A stretch of DNA of 64,000 nucleotides from a virus (IMGVR_UViG_3300027917_000034:1-64000); one strand, 5' to 3'; counted from the stretch's first letter, positions 906-6,732 are shown. Numbers and translations: made by a program. The notes: a model not told the origin generated them from the letters alone.

Positions 906-1111
906 TTGATCTGATCGGCCAACGCATCCGCCTCTCTCGCGGCCTTGCGGTAGTGCTCTACGCCACGGCGTAGACACTCCTCGCAGTTGACCTCTGCCAA
1001 GCGTTTCAGCCCGGCCAACTCGACTCCTTTCCGTGTGTAGATCTCGTGACCCTCCACCCCGCAGAAAGCTCCACGGTAAGGGCTCACGAGATGAACCACT
1101 GACGGTTCCAT
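884..1111 (-). CDS. small putative Zn-binding protein inside the tRNA array
   Basis: RBS GGGAGGG before ATG 1111; VH..CG...VNCEECL motif, similar to ORF 13025-13273; the stop codon lies inside tRNA-Arg(CCG). Confidence 0.55.
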   Translation of the reverse strand: MEPSVVHLVSPYRGAFCGVEGHEIYTRKGVELAGLKRLAEVNCEECLRRGVEHYRKAAREADALADQIKRSSSKG

Positions 1112-1125
1112 GACGCCCTCCCTTC

Positions 1126-1351: not shown

Positions 1352-1484
1352 GGCCGACAAGGGATTGCGAGAGACGTTTACGTGCTCTGCCACTGAGCTA
1401 CCGCCTCCATAGAGGGGAGGCGGACGGGGATCGAACCCGCGACCACGCGCTTACAAGGCGATGTACTCCCACGAGCATTCGGCC
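1352..1484 (-). ncRNA. Y RNA 1 (YrlA-like; T arm, closed acceptor, D arm order)
   Basis: GGCCGAATGC...CTTGTCGGCC terminal stem with GNCGAANG motif; internal T arm GGTTCGATCCC, acceptor hairpin CCGCCTCC/GGAGGCGG, D arm TAGCTCAGTGGCAGAGC; close to the TROVE gene. Confidence 0.88.
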
Positions 1485-1605: not shown

Positions 1606-3234
1606 TTAGTTGGTAGCCAGGTCGATGCCGTCGATGATCTCCAGCCACGACCCGGTGTCACCAGCGAGGAAGGAGCTTGCGACCTTGAACACCGCGTCAC
1701 TCCAGCCGGACACTTGCAGGATCTCCGGGTGGTTCCCGTCGATCTGATGCGTGCGCCCGGGGGTGATGTCGATGCACACCAGCTTCGCGTCCCGGTTGCG
1801 GTTCCGCAGCGTCTCCCACTCGTGCATGAGAGCCGTTCCGCTCCCGTAGCCCCAATAGCCCCTGTCGGCCCATGACTCGTAGTCCGAGATGACCACGACG
1901 TGATCGACCTTCAGGCGCCGCTGGTTCACGTGGTTGAACGCAGCGCTCAGAGCCGTTCCACCTCCACCGAATCGGGCGAGCCGATCGGCTTCGGTCAGAA
2001 GCGGGTTCCGAGGCTCCGGACGGTAGCCGGTGTGGACCGACGTATCGACCGGGAGAACGGCTGCGTCACGGTTCTGACGCAGGTACGACGCAGAGAACAG
2101 CGCCGCGACGTCCACGCACCGGACCTTGGTGGCCACCTGCTCCATGCGACCCGTCTTCCGGTTCCGCTTGAAGCCTGTGACCGGGCTCCGCATCGACCCG
2201 GAGACGTCCACGACGATCAGCGTCCGGCCCTCTGCGACCGGGGCGTTCTCGGTGGCAATCTCCATGGCGTCGTGGAGAGCGTCCACGATCTTGCGAGGCA
2301 CGTCCGGGTGGATGTGCTTGTAGGCCGCGAGCAACTGGTACGGCATGACCCGGGCCTTCTGGATCGACTCCCGGTCCCGCAAGCGGTCCGCGATGAAGTC
2401 CTCCATGCCGGGGTCGGCCTTCAGAACCCCGTGCCGCAGAGCGGTGTTGAGGTTCATCCGGATGAAGTGCCACTGCCCGTTGCGGAAGATCTGCGCCCAC
2501 TGCTCGCCCGTGAGGGGCTCTGCCGTGAGCAACTGGAAGTCCACCGGAGGCGATGGCAGGCTCTTGTCTGCCTTCCACTCCTCGTACTGCCGGACGAGCG
2601 GCGGGAGATTCTTCCAGCCCTTCTTCCGCCGATCCTTCTCGCCCTTTCCGATCATGTACCCGAACAGCGCCTCGTGCTCCGGAGAAGCCGGGCTCGGGTG
2701 GACCATCTTCACGATGTCCGCGCCGGATGGGTCTTGACCGACCGACAGTTGACGGAACAGCCAGTTGGGCTTGTTCCTGGAGAAGAAGCCCCGGACGAGG
2801 TTCCGTGGCCCGGTGCCCAGCGACTTCCGACCGAGCTTTCCACTCCGCATCATCTGGACGAAGTTGCGGAGCATCTTCCCGTTGTCGATGACCTGCGGGA
2901 ATGCGGCCTTCAGGGCTGCGCGTCCGTTGTCACCACGAGAGGCCAGGACCGCCATGAGCAAGGCCGGCATGTCCTTCATGTAGCCTTCCTTGCGCGTGAA
3001 GATCGCCAGCTTCGCGATGAAGTCGGAGTCGCACTCCTTCGCCAGAGCGAGCACGCGGTCCAGGTGGTCCTCGGCGTTCACGTAGAACGTGTCCGAGAGG
3101 CACCCTGTCATCGCGTACCGAGCCAGGGCTTGCTTGGAGCCGAGAGCGTATGCCTTGCCCCCGGCTGCGTTCACTGCGTCTGCTGCCTTGACCGTCCGCC
3201 CACGGGACGATCCGAAAAGAGACTTGTTCGCCAT
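1606..3234 (-). CDS. rsr: TROVE-domain Ro60/Rsr RNA-binding protein with C-terminal vWA domain
   Basis: N-terminal 'N.AGG.AY......L..Y..TG.L..TFY' and 'GYMKDMPALL' segments typical of bacterial Ro60; vWA MIDAS 'VDVSGSM', 'GGGT', 'ISDYESW'; RBS GGAAGGGAGG before ATG 3234. Confidence 0.93.
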   Translation of the reverse strand: MANKSLFGSSRGRTVKAADAVNAAGGKAYALGSKQALARYAMTGCLSDTFYVNAEDHLDRVLALAKECDSDFIAKLAIFTRKEGYMKDMPALLMAVLASRGDNGRAALKAAFPQVIDNGKMLRNFVQMMRSGKLGRKSLGTGPRNLVRGFFSRNKPNWLFRQLSVGQDPSGADIVKMVHPSPASPEHEALFGYMIGKGEKDRRKKGWKNLPPLVRQYEEWKADKSLPSPPVDFQLLTAEPLTGEQWAQIFRNGQWHFIRMNLNTALRHGVLKADPGMEDFIADRLRDRESIQKARVMPYQLLAAYKHIHPDVPRKIVDALHDAMEIATENAPVAEGRTLIVVDVSGSMRSPVTGFKRNRKTGRMEQVATKVRCVDVAALFSASYLRQNRDAAVLPVDTSVHTGYRPEPRNPLLTEADRLARFGGGGTALSAAFNHVNQRRLKVDHVVVISDYESWADRGYWGYGSGTALMHEWETLRNRNRDAKLVCIDITPGRTHQIDGNHPEILQVSGWSDAVFKVASSFLAGDTGSWLEIIDGIDLATN

Positions 3235-3347
3235 GATCGACCTCCCTTCCGCCAACAGTGCGGCGCTTTCATGGCTGCCTTCCCCACCTACAGGCGTGGG
3301 GTGGCAATCTCCTATCGCTACCAGGTAGCGATTGGATAGTCAAGAGT

Positions 3348-3500
3348 GCCCTGACAAGTGAGCGCGAGAGCGTTTTTTTCAGCTTCCGGCCCATGATTCA
3401 GGCTCCGAGGAGCCGGCGGGCCGGGACAGGATTTGAACCTGCAACCTTTGATTTAGGAGATCAATGCTGTACCGATGTACTCCCACTAGGCATTCAGGGC
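3348..3500 (-). ncRNA. Y RNA 2 (tRNA domain opened in the D-loop; intact Arg-CCT-like anticodon arm)
   Basis: GCCCTGAATGC...CTTGTCAGGGC; internal GGTA-CAGC, TTGAT-CTCCTAA-ATCAA, T arm, acceptor CCGGCCC/GGGCCGG, then GCTG. Confidence 0.85.
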
Positions 3501-3576: not shown

Positions 3577-3699
3577 GGCCGACAAGAGATGGTCGAGATA
3601 AGCGCCCCCGAAGGGCACCCGCCACAGAGCGGCCCCCGAAGGGGCCTTGGCGGCGGGCAAAGGATTTGAACCAATGTAATCCCGTCCGAGCATTCGGCC
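3577..3699 (-). ncRNA. Y RNA 3 (T loop, acceptor-like stem and UUCG hairpins)
   Basis: GGCCGAATGC..GGGATTACAT..ATCTC..CTTGTCGGCC; GGTTCAAATCC; two TTCG-capped hairpins. Confidence 0.82.
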
Positions 3700-3777: not shown

Positions 3778-3905
3778 GGATCGACAAGGTGGGCGCGAGG
3801 CTATGCCTTTACCAAGGTTAGGCTACCTGGCCATGGAAAGCTCCGAGGAGCGGTGGCCAGGGGTGGATTTGAACCATCAAAGTAGTCCCGCAAGGCATTC
3901 GATCC
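3778..3905 (-). ncRNA. Y RNA 4 (YrlA-like)
   Basis: GGATCGAATGC...CTTGTCGATCC (compensatory stem); T arm TGGTTCAAATCCA, acceptor CCTGGCCA/TGGCCAGG, D arm TAGCCT..AGGC. Confidence 0.86.
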
Positions 3906-3981: not shown

Positions 3982-4124
3982 GCGGCGACAAGGGTTGCAG
4001 AGATCGTACCTCCGGGGGTGTTCGCCCCGGCGCTCTGATTGAGCTATAGGCGCAGGACTGCACGGTGTTACCCGCCGCCCCTGCTGGAGCACCTAACGAT
4101 GTATTCCCCGCCTGCATTCGCCGC
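3982..4124 (-). ncRNA. Y RNA 5 (tRNA domain opened in the T-loop)
   Basis: GCGGCGAATGC...CTTGTCGCCGC; ATCGT-TAGGTGC-TCCA...GCGCCTA-TAGCTCAATCAGAGC-G-CCGGGG/CCCCGG-AGGT-ACGAT. Confidence 0.85.
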
Positions 4125-4206: not shown

Positions 4207-4280
4207 TGGATCGTGCCGGGGTCGAACCGGCGACCTCCGCGATGCGAACGCGGCGCTCTCCCACACTGAGCTAACGACCC
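4207..4280 (-). tRNA. tRNA-Ala(CGC)
   Basis: CCGCG-TT CGC AT-CGCGG; G3:U70. Confidence 0.92.
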
Positions 4281-4284
4281 ATGA

Positions 4285-4352
4285 GGCCGACAAGGAACGG
4301 TGAGACGACGGTTTTTCTCCAACGAAAATGTAGTCCCTCCAAGCATTCGGCC
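4285..4352 (-). ncRNA. Y RNA 6 (minimal, Ro-binding module only)
   Basis: GGCCGAATGC TTGGA GGGACTACAT...GTCTC...CTTGTCGGCC; 68 nt, no tRNA arms. Confidence 0.8.
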
Positions 4353-4354
4353 GG

Positions 4355-4427
4355 TGGAGTCGGAGGGGCTTGAACCCTCGGCCTTCGGTCTGCCAGACCG
4401 ACGCTCTCCCAACTGAGCTACGACCCC
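4355..4427 (-). tRNA. tRNA-Ala(GGC)
   Basis: TCGGT-CT GGC AG-ACCGA; G3:U70. Confidence 0.92.
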
Positions 4428-4495
4428 ATCCACAACCCGTCAGGGGGGCTGCGGCGTATGAGAATGCGACCGGGACAGAACCCTTGTCGTCGCGG

Positions 4496-4567
4496 TGGGC
4501 GTGGAGGGATTTGAACCCCCGATCTTCTGCGCGTCGAGCAGACGTCTTTCCACTTGACCACACGCCC
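4496..4567 (-). tRNA. tRNA-Val(GAC), with C33
   Basis: TCTGC-TC GAC GC-GCAGA. Confidence 0.85.
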
Positions 4568-4569
4568 TC

Positions 4570-4644
4570 TGGTACCCCGCCCCGGACTCGAACCGGGATT
4601 CGCCGGCTTATAAGGCCGGTGCAGTACCCTTGTGCTAGCGGGGC
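4570..4644 (-). tRNA. tRNA-Ile(TAT)
   Basis: CCGGC-CT TAT AA-GCCGG; encoded CCA. Confidence 0.87.
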
Positions 4645-4692
4645 TCCGAGTTTTCGGAGCCCGGTATTCGCCTCATCATTGGAACCCCCTTC

Positions 4693-4767
4693 TGGTGCCC
4701 AGGGACGGAATCGAACCGTCGTTCTCGCACTTATCAGGCGCGCGTCTTGCCACTCGACCACCCGGGC
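4693..4767 (-). tRNA. tRNA-Ile(GAT)
   Basis: CGCGC-CT GAT AA-GTGCG; encoded CCA. Confidence 0.92.
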
Positions 4768-4768
4768 A

Positions 4769-4844
4769 TGGAGCCCCCGGCCGGACTCGAACCGGCATCC
4801 TCTCGGGTAGGAGCCGAGCGCACGTCCTGTCGTGCTACGGGGGC
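4769..4844 (-). tRNA. tRNA-Arg(CCT)
   Basis: CTCGG-CT CCT AC-CCGAG; encoded CCA. Confidence 0.9.
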
Positions 4845-4845
4845 A

Positions 4846-4923
4846 TGGGGTGATCGATGGGACTCGAACCCACTAGGGCCGGGATCACAACCCGGTGCCG
4901 CGACCACTTTGGCTTCGACCACC
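4846..4923 (-). tRNA. tRNA-His(GTG)
   Basis: CCGGG-TT GTG AT-CCCGG; G-1:C73; encoded CCA. Confidence 0.92.
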
Positions 4924-4927
4924 ATGA

Positions 4928-5056
4928 GAGCCGACAAGGAACCGATGAGATCGTGAGTCATTCTATGGGCAGGACTCGAACCTGCTTCTCCGGGATTGCC
5001 CGGCGCTTTTCCTCATAAGCTACCTCAGAGATGTAATCCCGCCGTGCATTCGGCTC
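4928..5056 (-). ncRNA. Y RNA 7 (unpermuted cloverleaf attached through the acceptor stem; 4-nt loop in place of the anticodon)
   Basis: GAGCCGAATGC...CTTGTCGGCTC; D arm TAGCTT..AAGC, CCGGG-CAAT-CCCGG, T arm GCAGGTTCGAGTCCTGC. Confidence 0.85.
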
Positions 5057-5130
5057 GGTACCAGCGCCGGGACTTGAACCCGATCCTCTCGGTCCACAGC
5101 CGAGCGCGCCACCCGTTGCGCCTCGCTGGC
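5057..5130 (-). tRNA. tRNA with GTG anticodon lacking His identity elements
   Basis: CTCGG-CT GTG GA-CCGAG; A73 and no G-1. Confidence 0.75.
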
Positions 5131-5131
5131 A

Positions 5132-5217
5132 TGGTCCCCCGAGAAGGAATCGAACCTCCCTGGCCATACGACGACGGGGTTACAGCCCGCCCACCATCCA
5201 TAGGTGTCTATCGGGGG
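5132..5217 (-). tRNA. tRNA-Tyr(GTA) with C1:G72
   Basis: GCGGG-CT GTA AC-CCCGT; long variable region; acceptor CCCCCGA/TCGGGGG-A-CCA. Confidence 0.85.
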
Positions 5218-5226
5218 AAAACTCAG

Positions 5227-5300
5227 TCCGCGTGGAGGGATTTGAACCCCCGTCTTCCGGCTCCCAAAGCCGGCGCCCGACCAGGCTGGGCCACACGCGG
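5227..5300 (-). tRNA. tRNA-Pro(TGG)
   Basis: CCGGC-TT TGG GA-GCCGG. Confidence 0.92.
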
Positions 5301-5301
5301 A

Positions 5302-5376
5302 TGGTGGAGAGCCCCGGAATCGAACCGAGATTCGCGGATTTTCAGTCCGCTGCTCTACCGATTGAGCTAACTCTCC
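5302..5376 (-). tRNA. tRNA-Phe(GAA)
   Basis: GCGGA-CT GAA AA-TCCGC; encoded CCA. Confidence 0.94.
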
Positions 5377-5377
5377 A

Positions 5378-5455
5378 TGGCGGGGATGACGGGATTTGAA
5401 CCCGCGATCTTCTGCGTGACAGGCAGATGTCCTACCCAGGCTAGACCACATCCCC
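5378..5455 (-). tRNA. tRNA-Asp(GTC)
   Basis: TCTGC-CT GTC AC-GCAGA; G73; encoded CCA. Confidence 0.94.
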
Positions 5456-5459
5456 AAAA

Positions 5460-5568
5460 GGCCGACAAGATCGATGAGAGCTTTTACATGCCGGACTCGA
5501 ACCGGCTAGGTTTGGTTGATAGCCAAATTGTGAACCAATCACGATGTACTCCCACCCGGCATTCGGCC
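5460..5568 (-). ncRNA. Y RNA 8 (unpermuted cloverleaf attached through the acceptor stem; ATC anticodon loop)
   Basis: GGCCGAATGC...CTTGTCGGCC; TACAT/ATGTA stem, GTGA-TTGGT-TCAC, TTTGG-CTATCAA-CCAAA, GCCGGTTCGAGTCCGGC. Confidence 0.85.
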
Positions 5569-5643
5569 TGGCAGGTCACTGAGGAATCGAACCCCACAGA
5601 CGTCCGGGTTTGGAGCCCAGACCGCGTACCCAGCGCGTGACCC
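5569..5643 (-). tRNA. tRNA-Trp(CCA), short D arm
   Basis: CTGGG-CT CCA AA-CCCGG; G73; encoded CCA. Confidence 0.82.
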
Positions 5644-5723
5644 AGAGCGTCTCCGTCCAGGGCGTATCCATGGAACGAGTCGCTTCATGCGTCTCTCGGA
5701 GACGTGGCAGCATCCCGAAGGTC

Positions 5724-5780
5724 GCTGCCCCCACTGGTACCGTTGCTCCCTTTCGGGCCTGGCGGTCCTTGGTGGGCCAG
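5724..5780 (-). ncRNA. SRP RNA (4.5S/helix 8)-like element
   Basis: CCGCCAGGCCC-GAAA-GGGAGCAACGG has the CAGG/GNRA/AGCA signature of SRP domain IV; closed by CCCAC/GTGGG. Confidence 0.72.
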
Positions 5781-5853
5781 CATCGGAGGCAGGGATCGAA
5801 CCTGCACTGACGCGGGGTCAAAGCCCGCCGCTCTACCGTTGAGCTACTCCGAT
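5781..5853 (-). tRNA. tRNA-Gln(TTG)
   Basis: GCGGG-CT TTG AC-CCCGC. Confidence 0.88.
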
Positions 5854-5864
5854 ATGAAAACTGC

Positions 5865-5937
5865 GGCTCGGGCGCGAGGACTCGAACCTCGATTAGCGGG
5901 GCCAGAACCCGCCGTCCTGCCATTAGACGACGCCCGA
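5865..5937 (-). tRNA. tRNA-Gln(CTG)
   Basis: GCGGG-TT CTG GC-CCCGC; U1:A72. Confidence 0.92.
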
Positions 5938-5938
5938 A

Positions 5939-6014
5939 TGGTGGGTCCACCGGGACTCGAACCCAGATCGTCCGATTAAGAGTCGGAGGCGTTGCCAATT
6001 ACGCTCATGGACCC
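5939..6014 (-). tRNA. tRNA-Lys(CTT)
   Basis: TCCGA-CT CTT AA-TCGGA; encoded CCA. Confidence 0.92.
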
Positions 6015-6019
6015 GTGAA

Positions 6020-6094
6020 GGCTGGCCAGGTGGGACTCGAACCCACAACATCCCGGTTAACAGCCGGGCGCTCTACCAGGTGAGCTTCTGGCCA
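6020..6094 (-). tRNA. tRNA-Asn(GTT)
   Basis: CCCGG-CT GTT AA-CCGGG. Confidence 0.92.
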
Positions 6095-6199
6095 ATATGC
6101 CCCGGGGCCGGGTGAGCCCCGGGGCGAAGATGCTCGGTTGTCACAGACCGTTCGGCCGTCGCCGGCAGGTTCACAATCGGAACCTGCTTCTTCGATCGG

Positions 6200-6272
6200 T
6201 GGGGGCAACAGGGCTCGAACCTGCTCAGACCGGATTAAAAGTCCGGTGCCCGTCCTGTCGGGCGCTACCCCC
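6200..6272 (-). tRNA. tRNA-Lys(TTT)
   Basis: CCGGA-CT TTT AA-TCCGG. Confidence 0.88.
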
Positions 6273-6344
6273 GGAGATTGCTGTCTCCGGGTCATTGTTT
6301 GAATCGCCTGGGCATCGCTCCTCGTCTCCTCGAATCCGCCAACG

Positions 6345-6375
6345 AAAAAAGCCGCCTCGGTTTCCCGGGGCGGCT
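6345..6375 (-). terminator. intrinsic terminator/attenuator upstream of the tRNA-Y RNA operon
   Basis: AGCCGCCCCGG-GAAA-CCGAGGCGGCT followed by a U-tract on the minus strand, just before the first tRNA. Confidence 0.75.
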
Positions 6376-6732
6376 CTCGCGTACAGTGCGTGTGCTTTGC
6401 GAGAGCCTACCCGGGGCTACCCTCCTGAAGCGCGATGGCGGCATAAAACACGGTATTGCCGCTATCGGAGGGTAGACACGTCCATGAGGACGGTCGTTTG
6501 ACCTCCGTGCGCTTCAACCGGGTATGGGATTCTTGCCGTTGCATCGTGCTTCTCAGTAGCTCCCGGAAGGTGATGGACCTCCCGCTCGCACTTCTCAGCC
6601 TGTCAAGCGCAAACCATCCCGTCAAGGGAAAAATGCACGCCGAGGCAACTTTTTTGCGGCTCTTTGGAACGTACTGACTGGTACTCCGTTGAGGGGCGGA
6701 GTGATCTCCCTGACGCCCACGGCGACGGCCCC

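What the first reader, a model, noticed from the sequence alone, without database searches (positions are those of the whole stretch)
4928..5568. Y RNAs 7 and 8: whole cloverleafs hung from the Ro stem by the acceptor end, with non-decoding anticodons
Seen: both keep D, anticodon and T arms in normal order, but the acceptor helix runs into the Ro module, so there is no CCA end. Y7 has a 4-nt loop (CAAT). Y8 has a 7-nt loop CT-ATC-AA, an A34 'Asp' anticodon that bacteria do not normally use. In Y8 the conserved UACAU itself forms the acceptor helix with AUGUA. Inference: these are unchargeable tRNA mimics that tRNA scanners would miscall as pseudo-tRNAs.
Basis: partly seen in the sequence, partly recalled or inferred. 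Interest (0 to 1): 0.72.

Follow-up and report, generated by a model that had tools for sequence, protein, structure and literature searches.

The report
Phage Y RNAs carrying unrotated tRNA shapes
Two small RNA genes in a phage tRNA cluster join a docking stem for the phage's own Ro60 protein to a complete, normally ordered tRNA cloverleaf that cannot decode, a layout different from the rotated tRNA mimic described for bacterial Y RNAs.

Summary
On the minus strand, Y7 (4928-5056) and Y8 (5459-5569) each have the Ro-type stem shared by all eight Y modules of this phage. That stem encloses a cloverleaf in normal D, anticodon, T order, joined through the acceptor helix.

- **Y7:** 7-bp acceptor, CAAU tetraloop in place of an anticodon loop, Rfam tRNA 45.9 bits, ARAGORN "tRNA-???".
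- **Y8:** the conserved UACAU pairs with AUGUA as the only acceptor helix. The 7-nt loop reads AUC.

A syntenic relative (L248) carries both RNAs with many compensatory changes. Its Y8 anticodon is UCU, not AUC. Two more lineages have the same layout. Over six sequences, 95% of cells pair and 21 of 36 pairs change on both sides.

A Ro60 gene lies 1.7 kb away on the same strand. Of the roughly 240 loci retrieved by RNA-motif patterns, 91 also encode Ro60.

Published YrlA RNAs are circularly permuted (T, closed acceptor, D). Only Deinococcus Yrn1 has the unrotated order, and only partly. I class this as a new variant of a known kind.

Ro binding, processing and function were not tested. This scan's earlier notes describe similar Ro-handle/tRNA-shaped RNAs on other phage DNA.

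The parts
4928..5056 (-). Y7: Y RNA-like gene, Ro-type stem plus an unpermuted cloverleaf joined through the acceptor helix
   Evidence: Own motif finder. Folds. Model R1 150.6 bits. Ortholog in L248 at 564-692.
5047..5054 (-). Y7 GNCGAAN0-1G motif (GCCGAAUG), the presumed Ro60 contact
   Evidence: The motif is defined in PMC4201824.
4961..5029 (-). Y7 cloverleaf core: acceptor, D arm, tetraloop-capped anticodon stem, T arm
   Evidence: Rfam RF00005 45.9 bits. ARAGORN tRNA-???.
4990..5003 (-). Y7 anticodon-position stem CCGGG/CCCGG closed by the 4-nt loop CAAU
   Evidence: Identical in the L248 ortholog.
4930..4938 (-). Y7 3' strand of the Ro stem (CUUGUCGGC)
5459..5569 (-). Y8: Y RNA-like gene. 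Its D-anticodon-T core sits directly on the conserved UACAU/AUGUA helix.
   Evidence: Model R1 55.8 bits with the 7-bp acceptor deleted. Ortholog in L248 at 1717-1830.
5484..5548 (-). Y8 cloverleaf core
   Evidence: Rfam RF00005 23.3 bits, below the cut-off of 29. ARAGORN tRNA-Asp(atc) only at the relaxed threshold.
5511..5527 (-). Y8 anticodon arm UUUGG-CUAUCAA-CCAAA, with the AUC triplet at 5518-5520
   Evidence: The ortholog has ACUGC-CUUCUAA-GCAGU.
1606..3255 (-). Phage Ro60 (TROVE plus vWA) gene, the presumed protein partner
   Evidence: Pfam vWA_Ro60 and TROVE above their cut-offs. D. radiodurans Rsr 2nvo E 1e-15 and phage phiLo Ro60 E 1e-10 over nearly the full length. 43.5% identity to the Myxococcus phage Mx1 protein.
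5569..5643 (-). tRNA-Trp. Its encoded CCA end abuts the first base of Y8, so its 3' maturation would set the Y8 5' end.
5378..5455 (-). tRNA-Asp, 3 nt downstream of Y8. RNase P cleavage here would set the Y8 3' end.
5057..5130 (-). tRNA-His directly upstream of Y7, with no spacer
4846..4922 (-). Second tRNA-His, 5 nt downstream of Y7
1352..1484 (-). Y1: canonical permuted YrlA-type Y RNA (T arm, closed acceptor hairpin, D arm). It is the in-window reference for the known layout.
   Evidence: Rfam RF02553 57.1 bits with the structure line shown.
4285..4352 (-). Y6: minimal 68-nt Y module holding only the shared Ro-type parts

Best explanation
Y7 and Y8 are real phage Y RNAs. Each has two modules.

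Module 1 is the handle shared by all eight Y RNAs of this phage: a terminal stem with GNCGAAUG on the 5' strand and CUUGUC on the 3' strand, a GGGAN/YCUC helix, and UAC(AU). It most likely docks the phage's own Ro60 ring protein (1606-3255). This docking is inferred.

Module 2 is a complete tRNA-shaped domain in natural order (D, anticodon, variable, T). Its acceptor helix continues into the handle. Ro60 would therefore sit at the acceptor end, and the elbow and anticodon arm would point away.

The RNAs are probably made from the polycistronic tRNA-array transcript. Their ends would be set by maturation of the abutting tRNAs (inferred).

They do not decode. They most likely act as other Y RNAs do, as a tether or gate that links Ro60 (and perhaps a host exonuclease such as PNPase) to a protein or RNA that recognises the tRNA shape.

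Shown here: the structures, their conservation and covariation, and the genomic link to Ro60.
Inferred: Ro binding, processing, and the partner.
For: Structure:
- The minimum-energy folds are the described cloverleafs.
- Rfam tRNA aligns both cores in normal order, at 45.9 and 23.3 bits.
- All core tertiary positions are present in Y7, read from the sequence: U8, A14, G18 G19, G53 U54 U55 C56, A58, C61.

Selection:
- Syntenic orthologs lie in L248 in the order Trp, Y8'..., Asp, Phe, Pro, Tyr, His, Y7', Arg.
- Y8 against Y8' has wholly different D and anticodon stems that still pair.
- The six-sequence alignment A6 has 95% paired cells and 21 of 36 pairs changed on both sides. None of 500 shuffles reaches this, and slid controls give 37-48%.
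- A third variant, found in other sediment runs, adds compensatory pairs in the handle helix, the acceptor and the D stem of Y7.

Link to Ro60:
- A Ro60 gene lies on the same strand, 1.7-2.2 kb away.
- The handle motif is the GNCGAAN0-1G of YrlA.
- Y1, with the same handle, matches RF02553.
- 91 of the roughly 240 loci fetched by RNA-motif patterns encode a Ro60 homolog 39-50% identical to this one.

Not decoding:
- The 4-nt loop of Y7 is conserved in its ortholog.
- The Y8 anticodon is AUC here and UCU in L248.

Processing and precedent:
- No promoter or terminator consensus site lies inside the array on the minus strand.
- Yrn2, tRNA-Asp and Yrn1 are co-transcribed in D. radiodurans (PMC4201824).
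- Thermus phage phiLo Ro60 binds phage Y-like RNAs and host PNPase (PMC12135203).
Against: - There are no expression, end-mapping or Ro-binding data, and no RNA run holds this DNA.
- Alignment A6 was fitted to the model's structure and has only six sequences from about four lineages.
- The other acceptor-joined examples (L173, L176, L248) lie on short stretches with no Ro gene in view.
- The folding z-score of the whole Y7 is weak, at -0.6.
- Y7 has a 7-bp acceptor. RNase P could therefore cut it, as it cuts M. smegmatis YrlA.
- The partner of the tRNA-like module is unknown even for canonical YrlA.
Confidence: 0.7

Rival explanations
1. They are precursors. RNase P and 3' processing release the cloverleaf as a free tRNA-like RNA, possibly CCA-tailed. 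The Ro-type stem would then be only a leader/trailer handle for processing or quality control.
For: - Y7 has a 7-bp acceptor, an A at the discriminator position and a canonical T arm.
- M. smegmatis YrlA, with a 7-bp acceptor stem, is cut by RNase P and CCA-tailed in vivo (PMC4201824).
- The genes sit in a tRNA array, where RNase P acts on every neighbour.
Against: - The product could not decode: Y7 has a 4-nt loop, and the Y8 anticodon is not conserved.
- Y8 has only a 4-5 bp acceptor helix, made of the handle's own UACAU.
- In Y7, leader and trailer pair beyond the acceptor (CAU/AUG).
- The handle is conserved and covaries as strongly as the cloverleaf, which is not expected of a discarded flank.
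Confidence: 0.15
2. They are decoys. The exposed anticodon arm and elbow soak up host tRNA-targeting defence enzymes (anticodon nucleases) or tRNA-modifying enzymes, with Ro60 protecting the RNA or degrading what it captures.
For: - The layout exposes the anticodon arm and hides the acceptor end.
- Y8 keeps a canonical 7-nt loop frame (C32 U33 ... A37 A38) while the triplet changes between relatives, as expected of a target mimic that tracks different host enzymes.
- The phage carries a full tRNA set.
Against: - No nuclease or defence context was identified.
- Y7 and its relatives replace the loop with a 4-5 nt cap, so an anticodon-loop decoy cannot explain them.
- The idea is purely inferential.
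Confidence: 0.12
3. They are decaying tRNA pseudogenes that happen to lie between Y-like flanks and have no function of their own.
For: - Y7 is called tRNA-???.
- Y8 scores below the Rfam tRNA cut-off.
- No close tRNA paralog exists in the window.
Against: - Orthologs keep every helix through compensatory changes, including the junction with the handle.
- The same layout recurs in unrelated low-GC contigs (L173, L176).
- The tetraloop is identical in both Y7 orthologs.
Confidence: 0.03

Closest known systems
YrlA-type bacterial and phage Y RNAs (Rfam RF02553; Chen et al. 2014, PMC4201824; Wang et al. 2018, bioRxiv 10.1101/312249)
   Same: - Terminal stem formed by the 5' and 3' ends.
- GNCGAAN0-1G motif.
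- Same strand as a Ro60 gene and within 4 kb of it.
- A tRNA-like effector module with a canonical T arm and D arm.
- No free CCA end.
- Y1 of this same array matches the family model.
   Different: YrlA is a circularly permuted tRNA. Its order is variable region, T arm, closed acceptor hairpin, D arm, with the Ro stem at the anticodon position and no anticodon loop. Y7 and Y8 have the natural order, an anticodon arm, and the Ro stem at the acceptor end. RF02553 gives no hit on Y7 at E up to 10, and only a forced 22.7-bit alignment on Y8.
Deinococcus radiodurans Yrn1 (Chen et al. 2014)
   Same: The arm order relative to the RNA ends is the unrotated one. A stem-loop at the anticodon position lies between D-like and T elements, with a 5-bp stem and a shortened (6-nt) loop. 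It is co-transcribed with a tRNA.
   Different: Yrn1 has no full D arm and no variable region, and its Ro-binding helix is of the metazoan type. No sequence relationship to Y7 or Y8 was found here. Y7 and Y8 use the YrlA-type handle and have complete cloverleafs.
Mycobacterium smegmatis YrlA (Chen et al. 2014)
   Same: It has a 7-bp acceptor stem like a real tRNA. [quoted passage not shown]
   Different: Its acceptor is a closed hairpin in a permuted module. Cleavage of Y7 would instead sever the handle's 5' strand from the cloverleaf.
Thermus phage phiLo Ro60 with Yrl1 and Yrl2 (PMC12135203)
   Same: A phage-encoded Ro60 with phage-encoded Y-like RNAs next to the gene. The complex recruits host PNPase in vitro.
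   Different: In the passages I read, Yrl1 and Yrl2 are described as stem-bulge-stem RNAs with no tRNA-like module. There are two RNAs there, not eight, and they are not described as part of a tRNA array.
Ordinary tRNA and tRNA pseudogene calls (Rfam RF00005, ARAGORN)
   Same: Cloverleaf with canonical T loop, G18 G19 and U8 (Y7). Y7 scores above the Rfam cut-off.
   Different: No free ends at the acceptor, no CCA, a 4-nt loop (Y7) or a 4-5 bp acceptor and a non-conserved anticodon (Y8), and flanks that form a conserved Ro-type stem.

Membership tests
YrlA (RF02553; Chen et al. 2014) | GNCGAAN0-1G motif near the 5' end, in a stem formed by the RNA's two ends | tested here: met
   GCCGAAUG at 5047-5054 (Y7) and 5560-5567 (Y8), paired with CUUGUCGGC. 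The stem covaries (helix 1).
YrlA (RF02553; Chen et al. 2014) | Encoded within about 4 kb of a Ro60 ortholog, on the same strand | tested here: met
   The Ro60 gene is at 1606-3255 (-). Y7 lies 1.7 kb and Y8 2.2 kb upstream on the same strand.
YrlA (RF02553; Chen et al. 2014) | tRNA-like module in permuted order: T arm, closed acceptor stem-loop, D arm, with the Ro stem at the anticodon position | tested here: not met
   The order is D, anticodon arm, T, with the acceptor open into the handle. Y1 in the same array does show T, acceptor hairpin, D.
YrlA (RF02553; Chen et al. 2014) | Score at or above the Rfam gathering threshold (69 bits) | tested here: not met
   Y7 has no hit at E up to 10. 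Y8 scores 22.7 bits with mispaired arms. Even the canonical Y1 reaches only 57.1 bits.
Y RNA in the functional sense (RNA bound and stabilised by Ro60) | Physical binding to Ro60 | not testable with these tools
   Only genomic linkage is available: 91 of the roughly 240 loci retrieved by RNA-motif patterns encode Ro60.
Yrn1-type Y RNA (D. radiodurans) | Unrotated order, with an anticodon-position stem-loop between the D-like and T elements | tested here: met
   The Yrn1 description is taken from PMC4201824.
Yrn1-type Y RNA (D. radiodurans) | Sequence homology to Yrn1, or a metazoan-type Ro helix | tested here: not met
   The Rfam scan at E up to 5-10 shows no Y RNA family other than YrlA on this region. 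The handle is of the YrlA type.
Functional tRNA (RF00005) | 7-nt anticodon loop, with the anticodon conserved among orthologs | tested here: not met
   The Y7 loop is 4 nt in both orthologs. The Y8 loop is 7 nt, but the triplet is AUC here and UCU in L248.
Functional tRNA (RF00005) | 7-bp acceptor with a free 3' end (CCA encoded or added) | tested here: inconclusive
   Y7 has 7 bp (6 paired) but continues into a further helix, with no CCA. Y8 has 4-5 bp only. Processing in vivo cannot be tested here.

The most novel reading that the evidence does not exclude
The Ro60 handle is a portable module that has been joined to every arm of the tRNA cloverleaf. By junction geometry, this one phage holds several versions:
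- joined at the anticodon arm: Y1, Y3, Y4 (canonical);
- joined at the D-loop: Y2;
- joined at the T-loop: Y5;
- joined at the acceptor: Y7, Y8;
- a bare handle: Y6.

Homologous cores also occur in different circular permutations in other contigs. The Y7 core is 75-80% identical to cores that are broken in the D loop (L208 group) or closed by a 5' acceptor hairpin (L054).

On this reading, the family is a combinatorial set of tRNA-shaped adaptors or decoys. Each places Ro60 at a different face of a tRNA-like body. Y7 and Y8 are the members that present the anticodon arm and elbow.
Probability: 0.3. Interest if true: 0.8.

Novelty: new variant of a known kind. Interest (0 to 1): 0.6.

Why it matters
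The role of the tRNA-like module of bacterial Y RNAs is an open question, and its partner is unknown. All described YrlA RNAs hide the anticodon end in the Ro stem and show a closed acceptor end. Y7 and Y8 do the opposite while keeping the same handle. So the tRNA body shape, not one particular end, appears to be what selection keeps.

A single phage Ro60 with eight different RNA partners is a natural test set. Pull-downs with each RNA could show which host factors read which tRNA face.

There is also a practical consequence. Such genes are annotated as odd tRNAs or pseudo-tRNAs: ARAGORN calls the L248 ortholog of Y8 tRNA-Arg. Phage tRNA counts and codon-usage arguments are inflated as a result.

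Tried and rejected
- **RNA evidence:** no RNA holder is listed for this DNA. Contigs laid from four sediment runs give variants but no transcript ends.
- **MAFFT of Y7 with Y8, or of seven type members:** misaligned in the D and acceptor arms. I built model R1 from three alignable sequences and re-aligned the rest to it.
- **Model R1 hits in L147, L013, L012, L022, L059 and L086:** inspection showed ordinary tRNAs with non-Y flanks, so I discarded them.
- **Generic descriptor search for more T-loop-joined modules like Y5:** too noisy, with chance hairpins, so it gives no support beyond Y5 itself.
- **BLAST of Y2 and Y5 against all held loci:** found no orthologs.
- **Nearest tRNA paralog of the two cores in the window:** none is close, so they are not recent copies of a neighbour.
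- **RtcB and CCA-adding enzyme families:** absent from the phage record, which is only about 48% complete. This is not informative.
- **Ro60 search in the records behind L173, L176, L187 and L248:** those records are not held, and the L054 record has no match.
- **Two reviews (PMC10870794, PMC6047535):** not held. I cannot rule out that they mention unrotated phage Y RNAs.
- **Exact-pattern scan for the Y7 D and anticodon arms in viral contigs:** found only L054.

Full report
**Context**

The window is the first 64 kb of an 81.9-kb IMG/VR phage record, estimated about half complete. The DNA occurs in marine sediment metagenomes.

The minus strand from 6272 down to 120 carries 35 tRNA genes. 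It also carries a 549-aa Ro60 homolog at 1606-3255:
- Pfam vWA_Ro60 and TROVE score above their cut-offs.
- D. radiodurans Rsr (2nvo) matches at E 1e-15, and Thermus phage phiLo Ro60 at E 1e-10, both over nearly the full length.
- The protein is 43.5% identical to that of Myxococcus phage Mx1.

Between the tRNAs lie eight RNAs that share one frame: a 5' GNCGAAUGC, a GGGAN helix strand, UAC(AU), a variable insert, YCUC, and a 3' CUUGUCGNC. My regex finder located them at these coordinates:

| RNA | Coordinates |
|---|---|
| Y1 | 1352-1484 |
| Y2 | 3348-3500 |
| Y3 | 3577-3699 |
| Y4 | 3778-3905 |
| Y5 | 3982-4124 |
| Y6 | 4285-4352 |
| Y7 | 4928-5056 |
| Y8 | 5459-5569 |

Y1 and Y4 match Rfam YrlA (RF02553) at 57.1 and 37.7 bits, below the strict cut-off of 69.

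**The observation**

Y7:
- The minimum-energy fold has the Ro stem, the GGGAU/AUCUC helix, a short CAU/AUG extension, and then a full cloverleaf.
- The cloverleaf has a 7-bp acceptor with one A.A mismatch and U8 A9.
- Its D arm is 4 bp with A14, G18 and G19.
- At the anticodon position a 5-bp stem is capped by CAAU.
- A 4-nt variable loop and a canonical T arm complete it.
- Rfam's tRNA model aligns it end to end at 45.9 bits.
- ARAGORN reports tRNA-??? with a two-letter anticodon.

Y8:
- It is shorter. The covariance model built from Y7-type sequences aligns it with the 7-bp acceptor deleted, so its D-anticodon-T core sits directly on the handle's own UACAU paired with AUGUA.
- The loop CUAUCAA has the canonical C32 U33 ... 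A37 A38 frame around AUC.
- Rfam tRNA gives 23.3 bits, below the cut-off.
- ARAGORN sees it only at a relaxed threshold.

Neither RNA encodes CCA. Both are packed between tRNAs with 0 nt upstream and 3-5 nt downstream. The encoded CCA of tRNA-Trp abuts the first base of Y8.

**Is it more than chance?**

A pattern scan of metagenome contigs returned L248, a 3.6-kb fragment that is syntenic with window 4268-6505 at 70-88% identity. Its gene order matches: Trp, Y8'..., Asp, Phe, Pro, Tyr, His, Y7', Arg(cct).

- **Y7'.** It keeps the whole cloverleaf, including the CAAU cap and the A.A mismatch. It changes one D-stem pair (U-A to C-G) and one handle pair (U-A to C-G).
- **Y8'.** It has entirely different D and anticodon stems that still pair, a swapped first T-stem pair, and the loop CUUCUAA in place of CUAUCAA.
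- **Other lineages.** Two unrelated low-GC contigs, L173 and L176 (the latter also seen as L202 and L187), carry the same layout with 5-nt caps on the anticodon stem.
- **Six-sequence alignment A6.** 95% of cells pair and 21 of 36 pairs change on both sides. No shuffle of 500 reaches any measure, and sliding the partners drops pairing to 37-48%. The alignment was fitted to the model, which favours the structure. The size of the effect and the pairwise ortholog comparisons do not depend on that.
- **A third variant.** A 2313-nt contig in three further sediment runs, about 87% identical, shows compensatory changes in the Y7 handle helix, acceptor and D stem. That table was truncated, so two apparently broken pairs cannot be judged.

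**What it is**

The handle is the YrlA handle. The GNCGAAN0-1G motif is the feature Chen et al. (2014) tie to Ro60 recognition, and Y1 with the same handle fits RF02553.

An independent link to Ro60 comes from the loci themselves. Of the roughly 240 loci that I retrieved with RNA-motif patterns, 91 encode a Ro60 homolog 39-50% identical to the window's within the held stretch. These loci hold 381 distinct handle-bearing modules, up to ten per locus.

The insert is what differs:
- Published YrlA RNAs are described as circularly permuted tRNAs: T arm, then a closed acceptor hairpin, then the D arm. The Ro stem stands where the anticodon arm would be, and there is no anticodon loop. The Rfam structure line on Y1 shows exactly this.
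- Y7 and Y8 have the natural order, and the Ro stem continues the acceptor helix.
- RF02553 does not hit Y7 at all. It aligns Y8 only by mispairing arms.
- In the literature I could read, only D. radiodurans Yrn1 has this orientation. It has no full D arm, a 6-nt loop and a different Ro helix, and its authors regard it as independently evolved.
- By my rough classifier, about 107 of the 381 modules are canonical, 74 are bare handles, about 22 are broken in the D loop, and 6 are acceptor-joined. The metagenome loci were selected for a late T arm, so 6 of 381 probably overstates their frequency.

**How it most likely works**

- Shown: two conserved, covarying modules, and genomic coupling to Ro60.
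- Inferred: the handle docks the phage Ro60.
- Inferred: the RNAs are cut out of the array transcript by maturation of the flanking tRNAs. No promoter or terminator consensus lies inside the array, and Yrn2, tRNA-Asp and Yrn1 are co-transcribed in Deinococcus.
- Inferred: the tRNA-shaped module tethers or gates Ro60 with respect to something that reads tRNA shape. The phiLo phage Ro60, its Y-like RNAs and host PNPase form such a complex in vitro.

Geometry gives the specific prediction. With Ro60 at the acceptor end, the elbow and anticodon arm are exposed, the reverse of YrlA.

Decoding is excluded for Y7, whose 4-nt cap is conserved. It is very unlikely for Y8, which has a 4-5 bp acceptor and a triplet that differs between orthologs.

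Cleavage by RNase P remains possible for Y7, as happens to M. smegmatis YrlA. I give this precursor rival 0.15. A decoy role against tRNA-targeting enzymes is attractive for Y8 but untested, and it does not fit the capped Y7 lineage.

**Wider pattern (followed up only in part)**

By junction geometry, Y2 reads as a cloverleaf whose D loop is replaced by the handle:
- a 4-bp closing stem CAGC/GCUG;
- 1 nt;
- a 5-bp anticodon arm with the 7-nt loop CUCCUAA;
- a 5-nt variable loop;
- a T arm;
- a 7-bp closed acceptor hairpin;
- 2 nt.

Y5 reads as one whose T loop is replaced:
- a 5-bp closing stem AUCGU/ACGAU;
- a 7-bp closed acceptor hairpin with no linker;
- UA;
- a D arm;
- G;
- an anticodon arm;
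- a 4-nt linker.

Other contigs hold further forms:
- D-loop-broken modules occur with GNRA-capped anticodon stems (the L208, L235, L142, L157, L164 and L240 group).
- A further form has a 5' acceptor hairpin followed by D, anticodon and T arms (L054/L165, L167, L190, L219).
- The Y7 core is 75-80% identical to members of both groups. In the L208 group the UAGCUUA half of the D arm sits downstream of the T arm. Homologous cores therefore exist in different circular permutations.

I found no orthologs of Y2 or Y5, so those two readings rest on single sequences.

**Novelty and score**

Phage Ro60 genes with YrlA-like RNAs are known. A tRNA-like module is the hallmark of the family. What is new is this layout: the YrlA handle on an unrotated, complete cloverleaf with a capped or free-running anticodon arm, inside an eight-member Y RNA set interleaved with a tRNA array. 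I found it in none of the papers I could read, but two reviews were not available.

Earlier unchecked notes of this scan describe comparable Ro-handle/tRNA-shaped RNAs in other phages. The theme has therefore been seen before on other DNA within the scan.

I rate it a new variant of a known kind, with interest 0.6.

Noticed in passing
window 3348-3500 (-), Y2: This reads as a cloverleaf joined to the Ro handle through the D stem (CAGC/GCUG). It is followed by an anticodon arm with the 7-nt loop CUCCUAA, a T arm and a closed 7-bp acceptor hairpin. Analogous D-loop-broken modules occur in L095 and the L208/L235/L142 group. No ortholog of Y2 itself was found.
   Followed up: partly
window 3982-4124 (-), Y5: This reads as a cloverleaf joined to the handle through a 5-bp T stem (AUCGU/ACGAU) with no T loop. 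The order is a closed 7-bp acceptor hairpin, UA, a D arm without GG, G, an anticodon arm, and a 4-nt linker. The linker lengths match tRNA junction geometry. It is a single case with no ortholog.
   Followed up: partly
window 5709-5789 (-), in the 136-nt gap between tRNA-Gln and tRNA-Trp: Rfam bacterial small SRP RNA scores 30.4 bits against a cut-off of 40. Only the apical domain-IV-like part aligns with high confidence. It may be a phage SRP-RNA mimic or a chance match.
   Followed up: partly
L054 11494-11624 (-) (= L165), L167 334-470, L190 1063-1195, L219 1847-1977 (-): A further Y RNA layout: a closed acceptor hairpin placed 5' of the D, anticodon and T arms. The hairpin loops begin with N-CCA right after the acceptor 3' strand, as in a permuted tRNA gene with an encoded CCA. 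RNase P cleavage would leave a two-piece tRNA still tied to the handle.
   Followed up: partly
L208 377-515 (-), L235 3978-4118, L142 2819-2942, L157, L164, L240: These modules are 75% identical to the Y7 core but circularly permuted. The UAGCUUA half of the D arm lies downstream of the T arm, and the anticodon stem is capped by a GNRA tetraloop.
   Followed up: partly
All loci fetched by RNA-motif patterns (L011-L250): There are 381 distinct handle-bearing modules in 135 loci, up to ten per locus (L019, L013, the window). Ninety-one loci encode a Ro60 homolog in the held stretch. Multi-copy Y RNA sets are common, whereas the published survey reports 355 YrlAs across 254 bacteria and 22 phages.
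   Followed up: partly
Myxococcus phage Mx1, OR576727.2 45169-45297 (L251 about 1503-1625): An unannotated canonical Y RNA with the same handle (RF02553 32 bits), about 11.6 kb upstream of the Mx1 Ro-like gene. Unannotated tRNA-like hits also lie at L010 383-458 and 11143-11217.
   Followed up: partly
window 4846-4922 and 5057-5130 (-): Two tRNA-His(GTG) genes flank Y7. The L248 relative has only the upstream one.
   Followed up: no
L054 11386-11493 (-): A 108-nt stretch between the Y7-like RNA and tRNA-Gln has a 7-bp acceptor-like closing stem and a D-arm-like start but an atypical interior. It may be another tRNA-shaped RNA.
   Followed up: no
window 906-1125 and 6095-6197 (-): Two gaps in the array fold into long GC-rich hairpins and match no RNA family. 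Their content is unexplained.
   Followed up: no
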